Source: a virus | DNA: 64,000 nt | IMG/VR virus record: IMGVR_UViG_3300045988_171772 | Location: 1-64,000 of that record | Direction: 5' to 3' (one strand) | Program-made: the position numbers and the translations under genes | In this document: positions 49,011 to 63,467 of the stretch, piece after piece | Numbering within the stretch: position 1 is the first letter of the stretch | Layout of the letters: each line of letters opens with the position of its first letter | Notes under the pieces: model-generated | Seen by the model: only the letters and a program-made list of their open reading frames with translations | Database searches by the model: none | Told to the model about the DNA's origin: nothing

Positions 49011-49118
49011 AGGAAGAATCCTCCATTTCTATATGAGAGTAAAGATTTTTACCTCTCTGTATAAAAAAGAAAGGTAGGTATCTAGCTTTGATATACTAGA
49101 TACCTACCTTCTTAAGAC

Positions 49119-58597: not shown

Positions 58598-60655
58598 TTA
58601 GATCATGACATCACTGCCATCATCATCCGGAATGATGGAGCTCACCTTGGATACAAAGAGAGGATCCAGATGAGAGGATGCTGTCTTCTCATAGAATTCC
58701 GGAGAGAGCAGCTGCTTCTTCAGATATCCATAAGACAGAGAGATGACCGGAGAGGGATTCTTAAAGAGAGCATCATTCAATCTCAGAATGACGTAATCAT
58801 TCAGATCCCCATTGGGTCCAAAGTCAGGGTCTTCATAGACATTGCTCTTCTTCCGGATGAGAGCACGTACCAGCATCTCCATATGGACGAAGTTGTAGTC
58901 AATGCCTGCTTCCAACTGCTGCTCTGCCATCATCTGCAAGACTTCATCAATGGTATTGCAACCCATACGGTCGTTGGTATTGAGAAGCTTGTTGATATTC
59001 TTAATGGGCCGAGTCAGCTCCTGCGATTTGACCTCTACATTGAAGAGGACCGAAGAGTCATCATCGAAATTCTCCAGAGAGATGGGCTTGCTCCGATCTT
59101 TCTGCTTCAGAATCATAGAAGCCAACTGATCACTCAGATAGAGTTTGGCTCCACCTTCTTCCTTGATGGGATAGAGCACTCGACCAGAGAAGTCGATGAT
59201 ATTGAAAGAGTTGCAATAGTAATCAACCGTATCCTCGGTCTCTTCTTTGAGAATCTCCGGAATCTGGATAAAGAGTTCTTCATCCGATTCTGCATTCGAC
59301 TTCATTGTGATGTCGTTGGAGTAGAGCTCAAACTGCTCATCGAACTCCGGAGACATGACGATGGGATCACTGTGGGTCATCTGCAGATGCTTGGAAGAAA
59401 GGACACGCTGACCCAGAGGTTCAGTCACCTTCATAGCAGCATAGGCACCAGCAGAATAGAGATCCTTATTCAACTCAAAGAGTCCACCATAGCAGTAGGC
59501 ACAGATACCATCCCGAGATGCACAGGTACAAGGAGAACGGAACTGAATGTGATGACCAATCAGATCCTTGTCTCTCTTATAGCTCAGCATTTTCAGATCC
59601 CCGTTCTCGTCATAGTAATACCGACGATCGAGCATCTTGAGGAATTTGTCATCCTTGATGAAGTATGTAACCGGCTTGGATGTATTGCACTTGAGATAAT
59701 CTCTTCTCAATTGCACAGCTGTCGCAGCAGTGGTTGCCTTCTTGGAGAATGCGCCAGGCTCACCCATCTTGGTCTTGGACATAATCAGAGACTTACGACC
59801 AGACATGGCATCCAGATAATACGCAGAGGGACTGCTGATGCCATCCACTAAGATATTCTTGTCGATCAGATGAGGAACGGTGGTACCATTGATGTCAGAC
59901 TTCAAGCCGATCATAATGGCGATCTCTTTAAACTGACCTTTGCTCAGGTTATTGCCAGACTGGAAGAGAGGTTTCAGATCATTGTCTTCATCCTGTACGA
60001 AGAGATCAATCAATCTCGAAGTCCTCTTATCCAATTCTGCTTCAATCTCAATCGGCTGCAGATTGGGATCGAGTTTCTCATGCATGAGATAATCAATCTC
60101 AGGATTTCTCTTGGCAGCCTGAATGATGGAATAAACCGAAACGCCCAAACCAAAGATGGGAGAGAATGCCCGAGAAATGGCAGTCATATGATGGGTGATC
60201 TCATCAATGATGCGACTCTGGGTATGGAAATCCACATCGGTGATATTGGGAAGAATCATATCATTGATATACTCAGTGATCTGATTCATAGAGGCATTCT
60301 TGAAATCAAAGATGAAAGATTCATCCAGGATATCATAGCAGTCACATTCCATGAATGCATACCACAGAATGAGATTGCTCAAGAAATGCCGAATTTGTAA
60401 AGTATGCAGATTCTTTTTCTTATCCTTCTCATCTCCATGATGAATATAGAAGTGAATCGGCATGGTGCGGATCTCTTTGTCTTCGAATTTGTATTTCAGA
60501 ATATCCAAAAGATCCTGGTAGACTTCCTCAAAGGAATCCTTATCCTTCAGGATATCATCGAGGAAGAAATAGACGTTGCTGTAGGTGGACATCAATTCCT
60601 CGAAGGATTTCTTCGGATGCCCATCGTATTCAATCGTAATACCTGCTCCCATCAT
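58598..60655 (-). CDS. multisubunit RNA polymerase beta'-like subunit, C-terminal half
   Basis: Bridge-helix region SGNNLSKGQFKEIAIMIGLK...AMSGRKSLIMSKTKMGEPG and trigger-loop region FRSPCTCASRDGICAYCYG...AAMKVTEPLGQRVLSSKH parallel bacterial beta' (SGARG..Q..QL.GMRG; HGARKGLADTALKTA; RSPLTC...GVCA.CYG...IGEPGTQLTMRTFH). Confidence 0.8.
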   Translation of the reverse strand: MMGAGITIEYDGHPKKSFEELMSTYSNVYFFLDDILKDKDSFEEVYQDLLDILKYKFEDKEIRTMPIHFYIHHGDEKDKKKNLHTLQIRHFLSNLILWYAFMECDCYDILDESFIFDFKNASMNQITEYINDMILPNITDVDFHTQSRIIDEITHHMTAISRAFSPIFGLGVSVYSIIQAAKRNPEIDYLMHEKLDPNLQPIEIEAELDKRTSRLIDLFVQDEDNDLKPLFQSGNNLSKGQFKEIAIMIGLKSDINGTTVPHLIDKNILVDGISSPSAYYLDAMSGRKSLIMSKTKMGEPGAFSKKATTAATAVQLRRDYLKCNTSKPVTYFIKDDKFLKMLDRRYYYDENGDLKMLSYKRDKDLIGHHIQFRSPCTCASRDGICAYCYGGLFELNKDLYSAGAYAAMKVTEPLGQRVLSSKHLQMTHSDPIVMSPEFDEQFELYSNDITMKSNAESDEELFIQIPEILKEETEDTVDYYCNSFNIIDFSGRVLYPIKEEGGAKLYLSDQLASMILKQKDRSKPISLENFDDDSSVLFNVEVKSQELTRPIKNINKLLNTNDRMGCNTIDEVLQMMAEQQLEAGIDYNFVHMEMLVRALIRKKSNVYEDPDFGPNGDLNDYVILRLNDALFKNPSPVISLSYGYLKKQLLSPEFYEKTASSHLDPLFVSKVSSIIPDDDGSDVMI

Positions 60656-60658
60656 TCT

Positions 60659-61171
60659 TTACTCCTCTGCTTCCGTGTTGAGTTCTTCGGAAGGAATCTC
60701 CTCATCTTCCGAAGCTTCTTCTCCATGCACCTTCTTCTCAATCTCTTTGGAGACTTTCTTCATACGATTCTCCATCGCATTCTTCCAATCGGTGGAGGTA
60801 TCCTCCTTTTCTACGATTTTGATCTCGGCATACTTCAATCCATCAAACTGGACCGAAGAGTCATACTCATTGATGAATTTGAGATAGTCCTCCAGACTGT
60901 CAAAGGAGATCTCAACGGGGAATCCTTTGGCTTGACAGGTATCACTGTTATAGTATTCAGCAATCTCCTGGTGAATGTGGTATCCGGCATCACAAGGTTC
61001 CGGATTCGGATTGAAATAGAAGTTATCGAAGAGCTCCATGAAGGGAGTGAATGCACCACTCATACCGACATCGGAGTTGGAAGAGACATTCAGGTCGATC
61101 TTCCCAAGATAGGAGGGATGGATATTACGATATTTCTGGGAAATGATTTTAGAGCTCTGCTCACCTAGAGA
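60659..61171 (-). CDS. RNA polymerase beta-like subunit (N-terminal-half type), exon 2
   Basis: Starts SLGEQSSKIISQKYRNIHPSYLGKIDL..SDVGMSGAF (compare beta RDVHPSHYGR.CP.ETPEG.N.GL). In frame with exon 1 after intron removal. Confidence 0.75.
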   Translation of the reverse strand, partial: SLGEQSSKIISQKYRNIHPSYLGKIDLNVSSNSDVGMSGAFTPFMELFDNFYFNPNPEPCDAGYHIHQEIAEYYNSDTCQAKGFPVEISFDSLEDYLKFINEYDSSVQFDGLKYAEIKIVEKEDTSTDWKNAMENRMKKVSKEIEKKVHGEEASEDEEIPSEELNTEAEE

Positions 61172-61579
61172 CGACTTATAGGTTTCACTATAAGACTGAC
61201 TATATCTTACCCGAGATAAGGAGTTCTTTCTTATCTCGAATCTCTCCCGCTTTGATTGAATGGAATTACGATAGACTACTGTCATCTATCTACCAACTAA
61301 GAGAAGTCTCTTAGCTCTACTCTACTCAGTTCTACCTGAGGTATTCCTACCTAAGTTACCCTTTCGATAGTCGATGAACCTTATCCTACTTTCATAGGAT
61401 CTTGGCTGCGTGATTGGCCCTACTCTCGACCTTGTTACTATACCAACTGAAATAATGTCCTCTTTAGATCAAGTCCAGTTGCCATATAGGCAGTGATGTC
61501 TATATTTAGTAGTCGGGATTTGACAGGCTATCGTCCCCGCAATTCAAGAGAGTTTATACCGAACTCTTTCAGGTATCAA
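61172..61579 (-). ncRNA. group I self-splicing intron (no internal ORF)
   Basis: P AATTGCGGGG 61544-61535, Q AATCCCGAC 61520-61512, R GGTTCATCGACTATCG 61380-61365, S AAGATATAGTC 61208-61198. P1 ACCGAAU/GUUCGGU with U.G at the 5' splice site. P9 hairpin 61194-61175. Terminal G at 61172. Confidence 0.85.
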
Positions 61580-62956
61580 ATTCGGTCCTTTAGCAGAGAA
61601 ATAGAGATCTTGGAGCATGGTCATATCATTGACCAACTCATCGGATTTCACAAGGTCTCCAATGTTTCTCATGCCATTGATGATGATGTCCGAACCAAAG
61701 TTGAAGAGTTCCAGGAGGGTATCCATGGTATTCAACTTAGACTTGGACTTCTTCTCGATGAGCTTGTTGATATTCTCGTTGATCTTCTTTCCCAGAGAAG
61801 ACATAACGATGTATTCATTCTTCCGGATTCTCTTATTATCCAGATCCATATTATTCCGATTCTTGAGAGAATCAAAATCCAGGATCATCCATCTGAGAAT
61901 CGAGTAGATATTCTTCTTATAACAGTCAGGAAGACGGAGATTGACCTGGGTAATGGTATCCAAGAGTCTCTCGATCATATGCATGGTGGTTTTGCCCTTC
62001 TCTGCAAAGGTCTCGAGATTCTTAGAGTGAGCAGATCCAATGGAACCTACTCGACAGGTCCAATACATAGTATTCTCTACCGTCTCCATGGTCATAGGAA
62101 AGTCTGCAGACATGCAGGCCGCGATCATAGCGGTGAAGTTTCCTACAAACGGTACATTCTCCATGAGGTAACGATCTACCTGGAGAATGATCTCATTCAC
62201 CCCGAAATACCGATACCGCTCATGATCATACTGATCCGCATGATCATCAAAGAAGAGCTTATCGAAGGGGAGAATCTTGATGACATCCTGGAGGCCAAAG
62301 TAGGCAATGGTATTCTTCAATCCAATCTTCGCAGAGAAGATCATGACAGGATTGATGAATTTTACCTTGGCTGCTTTGGACTTGGATGCAAATCTCGTCT
62401 TCCGATTCAATGCATAGCTATAGGTAGAGAATTGCATGACCTCACCATTCATATCGATGAGAGGACGCTTCTTACTCTTATAGACGATGATCGGCATACG
62501 GGACTTCATCGTGATCTTACCCTTCTGACTATAGGTAGATGCATCCACCAGCTGCCAGAGAGCTTTCCACTTTTTGTTATTGAGGGTATAGAATCCATCA
62601 TACTCAATCGGAATCAGAATCTTCTTGACGATATTCCTCTCATTCTTATTCGTCTTGATGTTGACGTGGAACTGGATCTCACCCACTCGATTGGTAGCCA
62701 GATATTTGAATTTGGGAATGTCATAATTCCCAGACTTTCTTTTGTAGTTGATATTGACAGAGTGCTCATTCACATCCACTTTGTCAGGATCCACTACGAT
62801 GTCATACCCGGTGATGGTGATGTTTTCAATGGCTTCAAATTCTTTCATCGCCATCACAACCAGATCGGGAATGGGGATGTCATTCTCCGATCTCAGAAAA
62901 GGAAGATTGAGCTCCTTTTCCATAGGATTGGGAAATTGATAGATATAATTTAGCAT
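61580..62956 (-). CDS. RNA polymerase beta-like subunit, exon 1
   Basis: TAGGAGA RBS. Ends ..DLYFSAKGPN (compare beta ..SALGPGG). The ORF-track tail LIPERVRYKLS* lies inside the intron. Confidence 0.75.
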
Positions 62957-62982
62957 TTTCTGTGATCTCCTATGAGAATTTC

Positions 62983-63036
62983 AAGTAAAAGAAAAGGTGT
63001 CATTCCAGAGTTCTCTCTGTGAGATAACACCTTTTC
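62983..63036 (-). terminator. intrinsic terminator
   Basis: GAAAAGGTGT...ACACCTTTTC, followed by TTTTAC on the minus strand. Confidence 0.6.
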
Positions 63037-63044
63037 TTACGGAC

Positions 63045-63467
63045 TTACTTGGAGAATACGACCTTGGTCACATCCAGCTTCTGAGGATCGGTCTTGTTCG
63101 GTTTGGCCTCAAAGCTGCTGATCACCACCGGAGTGATATTCATCGTCTTCTGGTATTTCCCCAGAGGAAGACGAACTTCATCTCCTTCCTGAATGATCTC
63201 AGACTTCCAGTCATCTTCCGGAATCCTGGTGGTATAGATGACGACCTTCAGAATATGAACGGTGTCACCCACCAGGGCATTCAGCGGTTCCATAGGATCT
63301 TCTTTGGTGAAGTCCACCATACTCTCCAAGAGAGCTGCCACAGCAGTCTTCTCAGTGAGATAGAAGGACTCTTTCCGGGGATCGATCTTCATCGTTTCCC
63401 CATTCTTCATCTTGTATGCCTTATACAAGGTGAGGGTCTTTTTGGTACGAAGTGCTTCCGAAACCAT
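63045..63467 (-). CDS. hypothetical protein (GC3-rich)
   Basis: 140 aa, AAGAGG RBS, terminator at 62983-63036. Confidence 0.65.
   Translation of the reverse strand: MVSEALRTKKTLTLYKAYKMKNGETMKIDPRKESFYLTEKTAVAALLESMVDFTKEDPMEPLNALVGDTVHILKVVIYTTRIPEDDWKSEIIQEGDEVRLPLGKYQKTMNITPVVISSFEAKPNKTDPQKLDVTKVVFSK

What the first reader, a model, noticed from the sequence alone, without database searches (positions are those of the whole stretch)
61172..61579. ORF-less group I intron splits the phage RNAP beta-like gene inside its most conserved fork-loop codons
Read on the minus strand, the gap between ORFs 61544..62956 and 60659..61285 carries the four classical group I core elements in the canonical order. 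They are P AATTGCGGGG (61544-61535), Q AATCCCGAC (61520-61512), R GGTTCATCGACTATCG (61380-61365) and S AAGATATAGTC (61208-61198). R and S form P7 (GACTAT/ATAGTC). The exon sequence ACCGAAU (61586-61580) pairs with an internal guide GUUCGGU (61564-61558), giving the hallmark U.G pair exactly at the proposed 5' splice site. A P9 hairpin (CTTATAG/CTATAAG, 61194-61175) is followed by UCG, so the terminal G is at 61172. The first exon-2 bases UCU can pair with AGA next to the guide (P10). Joining 61580 to 61171 is in frame. It gives ..FSAKGPN-SLGEQSSKIISQKYRNIHPSYLGKI.., which recreates the bacterial beta motif SALGPGG...RDVHPSHYGR. The ORF-track stop at 61544 and the ATG at 61285 therefore lie within the intron. 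The 408 nt contain no homing-endonuclease ORF.
Basis: partly seen in the sequence, partly recalled or inferred. Interest (0 to 1): 0.85.

Follow-up and report, generated by a model that had tools for sequence, protein, structure and literature searches.

The report
Self-splicing intron in phage polymerase gene
A 408-base self-splicing (group I) RNA intron with no gene of its own interrupts an essential RNA-polymerase subunit gene of an uncultivated giant phage. It is real and precisely mapped, but it is a new example of a known phenomenon, not a new kind of element.

Summary
The finding holds. Rfam's group I intron model (RF00028) matches window 61176-61604 (-) at 58.2 bits (cut-off 50, E 3.4e-12), the only Rfam hit at gathering level in 64 kb. 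A 96%-identical intron-less allele from another sample lacks exactly the 408 nt 61579..61172. Many uninterrupted homologues (99% to about 52% identity) read ..FSAKGPN|SLGEQ.., the predicted junction.

A P1-P9 model is 97% base-paired across five same-site variants, with 21 pairs showing compensatory changes (shuffles 10.4; slid controls 1-5).

The host protein is the N-terminal half of a non-virion RNA polymerase β subunit (AR9 gp105, PDB 7S00_c, E 5.9e-39). The site lies in an invariant GP-NS motif opposite E. coli β G536|G537, between Rif-pocket S531 and fork-loop-2 R540.

The true Q is AAUCACGCAGCC (61415-61404).

Relatives carry the same intron with an intact HNH endonuclease gene in P6, with decayed remnants of it, or with none, so the window copy is a late stage of a homing cycle.

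Group I introns in jumbo-phage RNA polymerase genes are already published (ΦPA3, AR9/PBS1). This is a new member of a known kind. RNA splicing itself is inferred, not shown.

The parts
61580..62956 (-). Exon 1 of the nvRNAP beta N-half gene (codons 1-459, ends ..KGPN)
   Evidence: PHROG 2943 positions 83-414. PDB 7S00_c.
61172..61579 (-). Group I intron, 408 nt, no ORF; subgroup IA-like (no P2; P7.1 and P7.2 present)
   Evidence: RF00028 at 58.2 bits. Exactly absent from the intron-less allele L001. An identical copy is in L135 from another sample. Covariation.
60659..61171 (-). Exon 2 (codons 460-629 plus stop, starts SLGEQ..)
   Evidence: PHROG 2943 positions 454-519.
61558..61586 (-). P1: exon ACCGAAU (61586-61580) pairs with the internal guide GUUCGGU (61564-61558). 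U61580.G61558 is the wobble pair at the 5' splice site. The loop is 61579-61565.
   Evidence: Sequence. All 7 pairs are standard and invariant in 5 same-site variants. Also present in the MFE fold.
61565..61567 (-). P10 guide AGA, pairing with exon-2 UCU (61171-61169). It is 5 bp (AAAGA/UCUUU) in relatives and 3 bp here.
61545..61552 (-). P3 5' strand CUCUCUUG, pairing with 61249-61242 CGGGAGAG
   Evidence: Many CG<->UA double changes in 52 family members.
61242..61249 (-). P3 3' strand
61536..61541 (-). P4 5' strand (within element P, 61544-61535)
   Evidence: near-invariant.
61404..61415 (-). True Q element AAUCACGCAGCC. The P4 3' strand is 61413-61407, with A61411 bulged.
   Evidence: Rfam alignment.
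61417..61528 (-). P5 (61528-25/61420-17) and a roughly 100-nt three-way extension: P5a 61518-11/61431-24, P5a' 61510-07/61440-37, P5b hairpin 61505-00/61489-84, P5c 61481-74/61451-44.
   Evidence: RNAfold. Compensatory changes in P5a, P5b and P5c. P5b is inverted relative to L134.
61379..61405 (-). P6 (61405-04/61380-79) and the short P6a hairpin (61400-395/61388-83). Relatives carry the HNH gene in this loop.
61367..61372 (-). P7 5' strand GACUAU (within element R, 61380-61365)
   Evidence: Invariant in 52 sequences.
61198..61203 (-). P7 3' strand AUAGUC (within element S, 61208-61198)
61334..61356 (-). P7.1 hairpin with a GGAA tetraloop
   Evidence: Covariation (helix 13).
61270..61316 (-). 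P7.2 region: two hairpins (61316-08/61303-295 and 61290-84/61276-70). The ORF-track ATG at 61285 sits inside the second one.
   Evidence: Four and three pairs with double changes (helices 15 and 16).
61211..61239 (-). P8 hairpin
61175..61194 (-). P9 hairpin CUUAUAG/CUAUAAG
   Evidence: One G-C to C-G swap in L011.
61172..61172 (-). Terminal guanosine (omega-G) at the 3' splice site
   Evidence: All ten same-site introns end in G.
58598..60655 (-). Downstream neighbour: the beta-prime C-terminal-half subunit of the same polymerase. It is uninterrupted here.
   Evidence: PDB 7S00_D at E 4.9e-48 and bacterial beta' residues 720-960. The relative L104 has a group I intron in this gene.

Best explanation
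Window 61579..61172 (minus strand) is a genuine ORF-less group I intron of the phage-typical IA type. It lacks P2 and has P7.1 and P7.2.

It interrupts the gene for the N-terminal half of the β subunit of a jumbo-phage non-virion multisubunit RNA polymerase, between codons N459 and S460.

Proposed mechanism, which is inferred from the anatomy and not shown here:
1. The pre-mRNA folds into the P1-P9 core.
2. An external guanosine bound at P7 attacks the phosphate after U61580, which is held in the U.G pair of P1.
3. The terminal G61172 then occupies the G site.
4. The exon-1 3'-OH attacks after G61172, with exon 2 aligned by a short P10.
5. The exons are ligated in frame, giving a 629-aa subunit.

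Without splicing, translation stops 11 codons into the intron and the polymerase loses its invariant fork-loop / HPSYLG / SNSD segment.

The window copy is a derivative that has lost its endonuclease gene. The same intron in close relatives carries an HNH homing endonuclease in the P6 loop. At the DNA level this copy most likely persists by vertical descent. It may also be mobilised in trans by relatives' endonucleases, and it disrupts their target site.
For: Shown:
- Rfam RF00028 at 58.2 bits (cut-off 50), E 3.4e-12, full-length model. The same model hits the homologous introns in L005 (89.2 bits), L135 (61.2), L133 (53.3) and L009 (88.6). It does not hit the intron-less locus L001.
- The DNA of the 96%-identical intron-less allele lacks exactly these 408 nt.
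- The predicted 629-aa product equals database proteins P0001-P0005 in length at 99% identity. Every uninterrupted homologue reads KGPN|S[LIM]GE.
- Both ORF halves hit one PHROG in colinear order and one PDB chain, AR9 gp105.
- Covariation in 52 diverse family members: score 0.201 against 0.113 in shuffles (0/500) and 0.08-0.11 for slid controls. P3, P6 and P6a carry many double changes.
- Covariation in five same-site variants: 97% of cells paired, and 21 pairs with double changes against 10.4 in shuffles (0/500) and 1-5 for slid controls.
- MFE z-score of -3.3.
- Substitutions between variants in the stretch downstream of the internal ATG are mostly amino-acid-changing but keep the helices. 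L011 has an indel in P8 and a UAG stop in that frame.
- An identical intron is found in an independent sample (L135). The exon-1 ORF cluster P0010 has 115 member sequences, so the allele circulates.
- HNH-bearing versions (L134, L011), decayed versions (L104, L014) and ORF-less versions (L133, L005) occur at the same site.
Against: - No RNA evidence. Splicing, GTP dependence and self-sufficiency are inferred from structure and from the need for an intact essential gene.
- This copy has three small blemishes compared with relatives: a C.A mismatch in P5a (61516/61426), P10 of only 3 bp, and an inverted P5b hairpin that replaces a GNRA-type GUGA loop with UCAC. Any of these could lower self-splicing efficiency.
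- Rfam's own alignment of P1/P2 contains non-canonical pairs, so P1 was assigned by hand.
- P1, P4 and P7 never vary among the same-site variants, so they are neither supported nor contradicted by covariation.
- Subgroup IA2 was not tested with subgroup-specific models.
Confidence: 0.93

Rival explanations
1. The intron is a decayed, splicing-dead relic. The gene is now either a pseudogene or a further-split gene expressed as two polypeptides: 1-459 plus an 11-aa tail, and a second product starting at ATG 61285.
For: - Jumbo-phage RNAP β and β' are already split into separate polypeptides. Intron-driven gene splitting has been proposed for them (PMC7598289).
- An ATG-initiated frame happens to run from 61285 into exon 2.
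- The copy has lost its endonuclease gene and has an inverted P5b loop, a P5a mismatch and a short P10.
Against: - All core helices are intact and 97% paired. Compensatory changes among variants show that selection acts on the RNA fold.
- U.G, omega-G and P7 are all present.
- ATG 61285 is buried in the P7.2b hairpin and lacks the AGGAG-type ribosome-binding site seen before the real gene starts.
- The 38 intron-encoded codons are not conserved as protein, and L011 has a UAG stop in that frame.
- The break would fall inside an invariant GP-NS motif.
Confidence: 0.04
2. It is a true group I intron that is spliced in vivo but is not self-sufficient. It needs a phage or host protein cofactor (a maturase or chaperone), for example because the P5b tetraloop contact is lost.
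For: - The P5b hairpin is inverted, with GUGA changed to UCAC. Four close relatives (L133, L134, L011, L014) keep a GCGA or GUGA (GNRA-type) loop there.
- P10 is only 3 bp here.
- Many group I introns are protein-assisted in vivo (general knowledge).
Against: - No candidate cofactor was identified.
- Phage IA introns generally self-splice in vitro, for example Pf-WMP3 (PMC3428280).
- The rest of the fold is complete.
Confidence: 0.15
3. The insertion is an assembly or chimera artefact of the contig and not part of a real phage genome.
For: The window is probably from a metagenomic assembly. No cultured phage matches at the nucleotide level.
Against: - An identical 408-nt intron sits at the same site in an independent sample (L135).
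- At least nine further contigs carry variants of it at the same site.
- The boundaries obey group I rules exactly.
Confidence: 0.005

Closest known systems
ΦPA3 group I intron carrying the HNH endonuclease gp210, in a virion RNAP β-subunit gene (Birkholz et al., Science 2024; PMC11620839)
   Same: - A group I intron in a β-like subunit gene of a jumbo-phage multisubunit RNAP.
- It is inserted at highly conserved catalytic-centre residues.
- An HNH endonuclease is associated with the intron. Here that applies to the relatives L134 and L011.
   Different: - A different polymerase: virion, versus non-virion here.
- A different site: after the DD motif at E. coli D675, versus G536|G537 (the start of fork loop 2) here.
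- A different phage lineage: Pseudomonas chimalliviruses, versus an AR9-distant uncultivated clade here.
- The window copy has no endonuclease gene.
[quoted passage not shown] 5 legend; Lavysh et al. 2016, which could not be read here)
   Same: - These are the nearest cultured relatives of the host gene (AR9 gp105, 28.5% identity).
- They too have RNAP subunit genes invaded by self-splicing introns, some with endonuclease genes.
   Different: - A different subunit (vRNAP β'N, versus nvRNAP βN here) and different sites.
- In the GenBank record, AR9 gp105 is annotated as a single continuous CDS with no join flag.
Phage subgroup IA2 introns with HNH genes: SPO1/SP82, Bastille, ΦI/W31 and Pf-WMP3 DNA polymerase introns, and the Staphylococcus Twort/K-like introns
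   Same: - Architecture: P1-P10 without P2, and P7.1 and P7.2 between P7 and P3' (criteria quoted in PMC3428280).
- The endonuclease ORF starts in P6 and runs into P7 in relatives.
- The ribozyme core shows 73-77% BLAST similarity to Staphylococcus (75-76%), Listeria LPJP1 (77%) and Vibrio (73%) phage introns; Bacillus phage records are also among the 85 matching records.
   Different: - A different host gene and insertion site.
- The window intron has a large three-way P5 extension and no ORF.
- IA2 membership was not tested with subgroup-specific models.
Group I introns of gut 'Jug' jumbo phages and crAss-like phages (PMC12880540)
   Same: - Uncultivated gut-associated large phages whose essential genes (terL, nrdD, DNA polymerase) are fragmented by many group I introns.
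- Splicing of 37 of 76 such introns was confirmed by metatranscriptome reads.
- Introns related to the window's sit in terminase-like genes of other contigs (L007, L008).
   Different: - Jug genomes are 360-402 kb with about 18 introns each. Relatives of this window are about 230-287 kb, and the 64-kb window holds one intron.
- The passages read list terL, nrdD and DNA polymerase genes as interrupted and do not mention RNAP genes.

Membership tests
Group I intron (Rfam RF00028) | Conserved catalytic core P3-P9 with the P/Q/R/S elements, scoring above the curated threshold | tested here: met
   58.2 bits against a gathering score of 50, E 3.4e-12, model positions 1-253.
Group I intron (Rfam RF00028) | Core helices, including the P3/P7 pseudoknot, supported by compensatory substitutions | tested here: met
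   covariation 0.201 against 0.113 in shuffles (0/500); 21 double-change pairs against 10.4, and 97% paired. P4 and P7 are invariant, so they are uninformative.
Group I intron (Rfam RF00028) | 5' splice site after a U that forms a U.G wobble pair with the internal guide sequence in P1 | tested here: met
   ACCGAAU (61586-80) with GUUCGGU (61564-58). All 7 pairs are standard.
Group I intron (Rfam RF00028) | Intron ends in a guanosine (omega-G); P10 can align the 3' exon | tested here: met
   G61172. All ten same-site introns end in G. P10 AGA/UCU is 3 bp here and 5 bp in relatives.
Group I intron (Rfam RF00028) | Precise removal restores an uninterrupted, conserved reading frame | tested here: met
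   The intron-less allele L001 lacks exactly 408 nt. Homologues read KGPN|SLGEQ.
Group I intron (Rfam RF00028) | Guanosine-dependent splicing of the RNA, in vitro or in vivo | not testable with these tools
   No transcript data are available. This is inferred from the fold and from the essential nature of the gene.
Subgroup IA2 (phage-type group I introns) | P7.1 and P7.2 between P7 and P3'; P2 often absent (criteria as quoted in PMC3428280) | tested here: met
   The P7.1 hairpin (61356-34, GGAA loop) and the P7.2 hairpins (61316-61270) are both supported by covariation. Only AUAAA lies between the guide sequence and P3, so there is no P2.
Subgroup IA2 (phage-type group I introns) | Best match to a subgroup-specific covariance model (GISSD or the Selles Vidal 2025 set) | not tested
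   Those models are not available here. Only the general Rfam model was run.
Mobile (homing) group I intron | Intron encodes its own homing endonuclease | tested here: not met
   The window intron has stops in all frames, and there is no homologue of the relatives' HNH anywhere in the window. Relatives L134 and L011 do encode an HNH (phrog_59 at 1.9e-25 for L011; Pfam HNH_3 weak for L134; L134-L011 71% identical).
Jumbo-phage non-virion multisubunit RNAP, β N-terminal subunit (AR9 gp105 type) | Full-length sequence homology to the structurally defined subunit | tested here: met
   PDB 7S00_c at E 5.9e-39 for residues 100-518. The family profile gives E 6e-167. AR9 annotates this protein as 'non-virion RNAP subunit, beta N-terminus'. 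The adjacent gene matches 7S00_D, which aligns with bacterial β' residues 720-960.
Jumbo-phage non-virion multisubunit RNAP, β N-terminal subunit (AR9 gp105 type) | Insertion site corresponds to fork loop 2 of cellular β | tested here: inconclusive
HMM searches did not reach bacterial β chains. No structural superposition was done.

The most novel reading that the evidence does not exclude
The fork-loop-2 codons of the non-virion RNAP β gene may be a contested homing site among co-infecting gut jumbo phages.

Relatives' HNH endonuclease would cut intron-less alleles such as L001. This would resemble ΦPA3 gp210, which disables ΦKZ. The window's ORF-less intron would then act as inherited immunity, because the target is split, while still being mobilisable in trans.

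Related introns 3 nt upstream (L009), in 26%-identical homologues (L046, L070) and in the neighbouring β' gene at G298|E299 (L104), a segment that by my unaided comparison resembles the bridge helix, would then reflect repeated targeting of RNAP catalytic-centre motifs as a form of inter-phage warfare.
Probability: 0.25. Interest if true: 0.55.

Novelty: new member of a known kind. Interest (0 to 1): 0.4.

Why it matters
- Annotation. Gene callers split this essential polymerase subunit into a 470-aa and a 208-aa ORF, as seen in many database entries. The correct product is a 629-aa protein.
- Biology. The finding adds a third documented case of self-splicing introns in jumbo-phage multisubunit RNAP genes. 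It is in a new subunit (nvRNAP βN), at a new site and in an uncultivated lineage.
- A natural series. The metagenomic relatives give a complete series at one site: intron-less, HNH-bearing, HNH-decaying and ORF-less. This could be used to study the homing cycle, endonuclease target specificity, and the proposal that introns seeded the splitting of jumbo-phage RNAP genes.
- It does not change what is known about how group I introns work.

Tried and rejected
- Megablast of the locus against cultured phages found no match.
- Pfam gave nothing for the host ORFs.
- An IMG/VR scan with the exon-1 protein found no relative.
- A family profile and an 81-aa segment searched against PDB sequences reached only AR9 gp105, not bacterial β.
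- Lavysh et al. 2016 (the AR9 genome paper) is not held, so AR9's own intron list could not be read.
- The genome-contig scan for the 18-mer core hit 14 MAG contigs from unrelated phyla and gives no host inference.
- Rfam's own P1/P2 pairing has non-canonical pairs. I replaced it with the hand-assigned P1 and concluded there is no P2.
- A long-range helix closing the P7.2 region (61328-19/61266-57), predicted by RNAfold, has no covariation and shows mismatches in relatives (helix 14). I rejected it.
- P1, P8, P9 and P7.1 scored poorly on the 52-sequence MAFFT alignment because those regions were misaligned. I retested them on same-site variants.
- The intron ORF of L002/L003 (148-167 aa) has no Pfam or PHROG hit, so its function is left open.
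- An evalue-level Rfam scan found no second intron in the window.

Full report
**1. The observation**

  - P (61544-61535), R (61380-61365) and S (61208-61198).
  - The P7 pairing GACUAU/AUAGUC.
  - P1, ACCGAAU/GUUCGGU, with a terminal U.G pair.
  - AGA next to the guide sequence, opposite exon-2 UCU.
  - The P9 hairpin, followed by UCG with G at 61172.
- Joining 61580 to 61171 is in frame and gives a 629-aa protein. The 408-nt insert has stop codons in all three frames.
- This is far beyond chance. Rfam's group I intron model RF00028 matches 61176-61604 (-) over its full length at 58.2 bits (curated cut-off 50, E 3.4e-12). It is the only Rfam family reaching its threshold in the 64-kb window.

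**2. Exact boundaries from an independent source**

- A search of the protein database with the predicted spliced product returned proteins P0001-P0005. They are 629 aa long, 99% identical and cover the full length. It also returned many 470-aa proteins that equal the exon-1 ORF, including its intron-encoded tail ..LIPERVRYKLS.
- In an alignment, every uninterrupted homologue from 99% down to about 52% identity reads ..KGPN|S[LIM]GE.. across the predicted junction.
- The DNA of one uninterrupted allele (L001, 96% identical) aligns to window 63100..61579 and 61171..60402, with the two blocks abutting. The insertion is therefore exactly 408 nt, with a 1-nt T ambiguity.

**3. The fold**

- I derived a P1-P9 model from the Rfam alignment plus sub-domain folding and tested it on two alignments.
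- First alignment: 52 non-redundant introns from metagenomes that share the R-element 18-mer.
  - The covariation score is 0.201, against 0.113 in column shuffles (0 of 500 as high) and 0.08-0.11 when partners are slid.
  - P3, P6 and P6a show many CG<->UA exchanges. P4 and P7 are invariant.
- Second alignment: five variants inserted at the very same site, namely the window, L133, L134, L011 and L014, with P6 inserts trimmed.
  - 97% of cells pair.
  - 21 pairs carry changes on both sides, against 10.4 in shuffles (0 of 500) and 1-5 in slid controls.
  - Support covers P5a, P5b, P5c, P6, P6a, P7.1, both P7.2 hairpins, P8 and P9.
- The structure was derived from the window sequence, so the percentage paired is biased upward. 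The double-change counts are not biased in that way.
- A long-range helix closing the P7.2 region was not supported and is dropped.
- The MFE z-score is -3.3.
AATCCCGAC (61520-61512) is not Q. It is the 5' strand of P5a. The P4 3' strand lies in AAUCACGCAGCC (61415-61404).
- There is no P2. P7.1 and P7.2 lie between P7 and P3'. These are the criteria quoted for subgroup IA2 in PMC3428280. I did not have subgroup-specific models, so 'IA, probably IA2' is an inference.

**4. The host gene**

- Both ORF halves hit one PHROG in colinear order.
- The spliced protein matches AR9 gp105 (PDB 7S00 chain c) at E 5.9e-39. The AR9 record annotates this protein as the N-terminal part of the non-virion RNAP β subunit.
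- The downstream ORF, 58598-60655 (-), matches 7S00 chain D and bacterial β' residues 720-960, so it is the β' C-terminal half.
- No cultured phage is close. The best are AR9/PBS1, LPJP1, the Staphylococcus jumbo phages and phiR1-37, at 24-29% identity.
- Related contigs are about 230-287 kb, and some come from human gut assemblies.
- The junction sits in an invariant G457-P458 and near-invariant N459-S460 motif.
- BLASTP aligns FSAKGPNSL...RNIHPSYLGKI with E. coli RpoB ISALGPGGL...RDVHPTHYGRV (E 2e-4). This places the junction opposite G536|G537, between Rif-pocket residue S531 and R540. R540 is described as fork loop 2 in PMC13404664.
- HMM searches did not bridge to bacterial β. The fork-loop statement is therefore well supported but not proven structurally.

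**5. How it most likely works**

- Shown: the fold, the splice-site signatures and the precise restoration of the frame.
- Inferred: the standard two-step, guanosine-initiated transesterification that yields the 629-aa subunit.
- The alternative, two separate polypeptides, is unlikely for four reasons:
  - ATG 61285 lies inside the P7.2b hairpin and has no AGGAG-type ribosome-binding site. The real gene starts do have one.
  - Differences among variants in that stretch change amino acids but preserve helices.
  - L011 has an indel in P8 and a UAG stop in that frame before exon 2.
  - The break would cut an invariant motif.
- The allele is not a one-off. An identical intron occurs in an independent sample (L135), and the exon-1 ORF cluster P0010 has 115 member sequences.

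**6. Evolutionary context**

- At this one site, relatives carry introns of 324, 407/408, 549, 599, 874, 1023 and 1040 nt.
- L134 and L011 carry a 206-207-aa HNH endonuclease gene. L134's ribozyme halves are 94% identical to the window's. For L011 the best PHROG hit is phrog_59 at 1.9e-25, and the L134 protein has a weak Pfam HNH_3 hit and is 71% identical to L011's. The gene sits in the P6 loop, and its last codons overlap P6'/P7.
- L104 and L014 keep only fragments of that gene. The window, L133 and L005 have none. L001 has no intron. This is the classical gain, decay and loss cycle of a homing intron.
- No homologue of the HNH is encoded in the window.
- The intron-less allele differs from the window at three consecutive synonymous positions right after the junction: TCC CTC GGC against TCT CTA GGT. 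Intron-bearing alleles keep UCU(U/C)U, which pairs with AAAGA next to the guide sequence. A P10 constraint is the simplest explanation. Endonuclease-target divergence is an alternative.
- Related introns sharing the same core occur in other genes, for example terminase-like genes in L007 and L008. They are abundant in gut and rumen metagenomes.

**7. Comparison with what is known**

- Group I introns in essential phage genes at conserved codons are textbook.
- In jumbo-phage multisubunit RNAP genes, two cases are already published:
  - The ΦPA3 HNH intron in a virion RNAP β gene, inserted after the DD motif (PMC11620839).
  - Group I and II introns in the virion RNAP β'N genes of AR9/PBS1-like phages (PMC12350094).
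- Gut 'Jug' jumbo phages carry about 18 group I introns per genome, and many were validated by metatranscriptomes (PMC12880540).
- What is new here is the subunit (non-virion βN), the site, the phage lineage and the complete allelic series. That makes it a new member of a known kind, of moderate interest (0.4).

Noticed in passing
window 61505-61484 (-), compared with L134: The P5b hairpin of the window intron (TATAGACATCACTGCCTATA) is the exact reverse complement of the hairpin at the same position in its closest HNH-bearing relative, L134 (TATAGGCAGTGATGTCTATA). This is a hairpin inversion that turns a GUGA (GNRA-type) loop into UCAC. Four close relatives (L133, L134, L011, L014) keep a GCGA or GUGA loop there.
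   Followed up: partly
L134:3499-4521, L011:3887-4926, L104:4490-5038, L014:3878-4476: The same-site introns of relatives hold either an intact 206-207-aa HNH endonuclease gene in P6, whose 3' end overlaps P7, or only decayed fragments of it. Together with the ORF-less and intron-less alleles, this gives every stage of a homing cycle at one site.
   Followed up: yes
L002:4544-5047 and L003:4544-5047: In a 66%-identical relative, the intron at this site carries a different 148-167-aa ORF in P6. It has no Pfam or PHROG match and no similarity to the HNH protein. It may be an unrecognised intron-encoded protein.
   Followed up: partly
L009:1853-2160 (IMG/VR contig; host gene 49% identical): A related intron with the same 23-nt core is inserted 3 nt upstream (KGP|NSLGE). 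It has its own P1 (GGCCCU/GGGGCU) and a terminal G. So two neighbouring phosphodiester bonds in this motif are used as insertion sites in different phages.
   Followed up: partly
L104:6377-6707: A relative has a second group I intron (RF00028, 73.5 bits) in the adjacent β' C-half gene. It lies between residues equivalent to G298|E299 of the window protein (..SKTKMG|EPGAF..). By my unaided comparison this segment resembles the bridge helix. The window's copy of that gene is uninterrupted.
   Followed up: partly
L046:8787-9737 and L070 (278-kb contigs; host gene 26% identical): A very distant homologue of the same gene is interrupted in the equivalent region by about 950 nt. This stretch contains one Rfam-level group I intron and a second R/S-like core (GGTTCAACGACTATCG ... 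GACATAGTC), so it may hold two introns. The exact junctions were not resolved.
   Followed up: partly
L007:1751-2100 and L008:4655-5068: Close relatives of the intron core interrupt a gene whose halves look like a large terminase (a Walker-A-like ..PRQTGKTQ.. half and a ..GEHDDCVMAY.. half). The intron family has therefore moved between genes and phages.
   Followed up: partly
window 61163-61171 (-) compared with L001:4378-4386: There are three consecutive synonymous differences immediately after the junction between the intron-bearing and intron-less alleles (TCT CTA GGT against TCC CTC GGC). The background is about 1 difference per 26 nt. This is consistent with a P10 pairing constraint or with divergence of the endonuclease target.
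   Followed up: partly
window 61493-62953 (+): A 486-aa ORF runs antisense to exon 1. It was not tested and is assumed to be a by-product of the sense gene's codon usage and not a gene.
   Followed up: no
window 49069-49111 (+): There is a sub-threshold Rfam match to IBV_D-RNA (32.5 bits against a cut-off of 35, E 0.001). It is almost certainly a chance hairpin.
   Followed up: no
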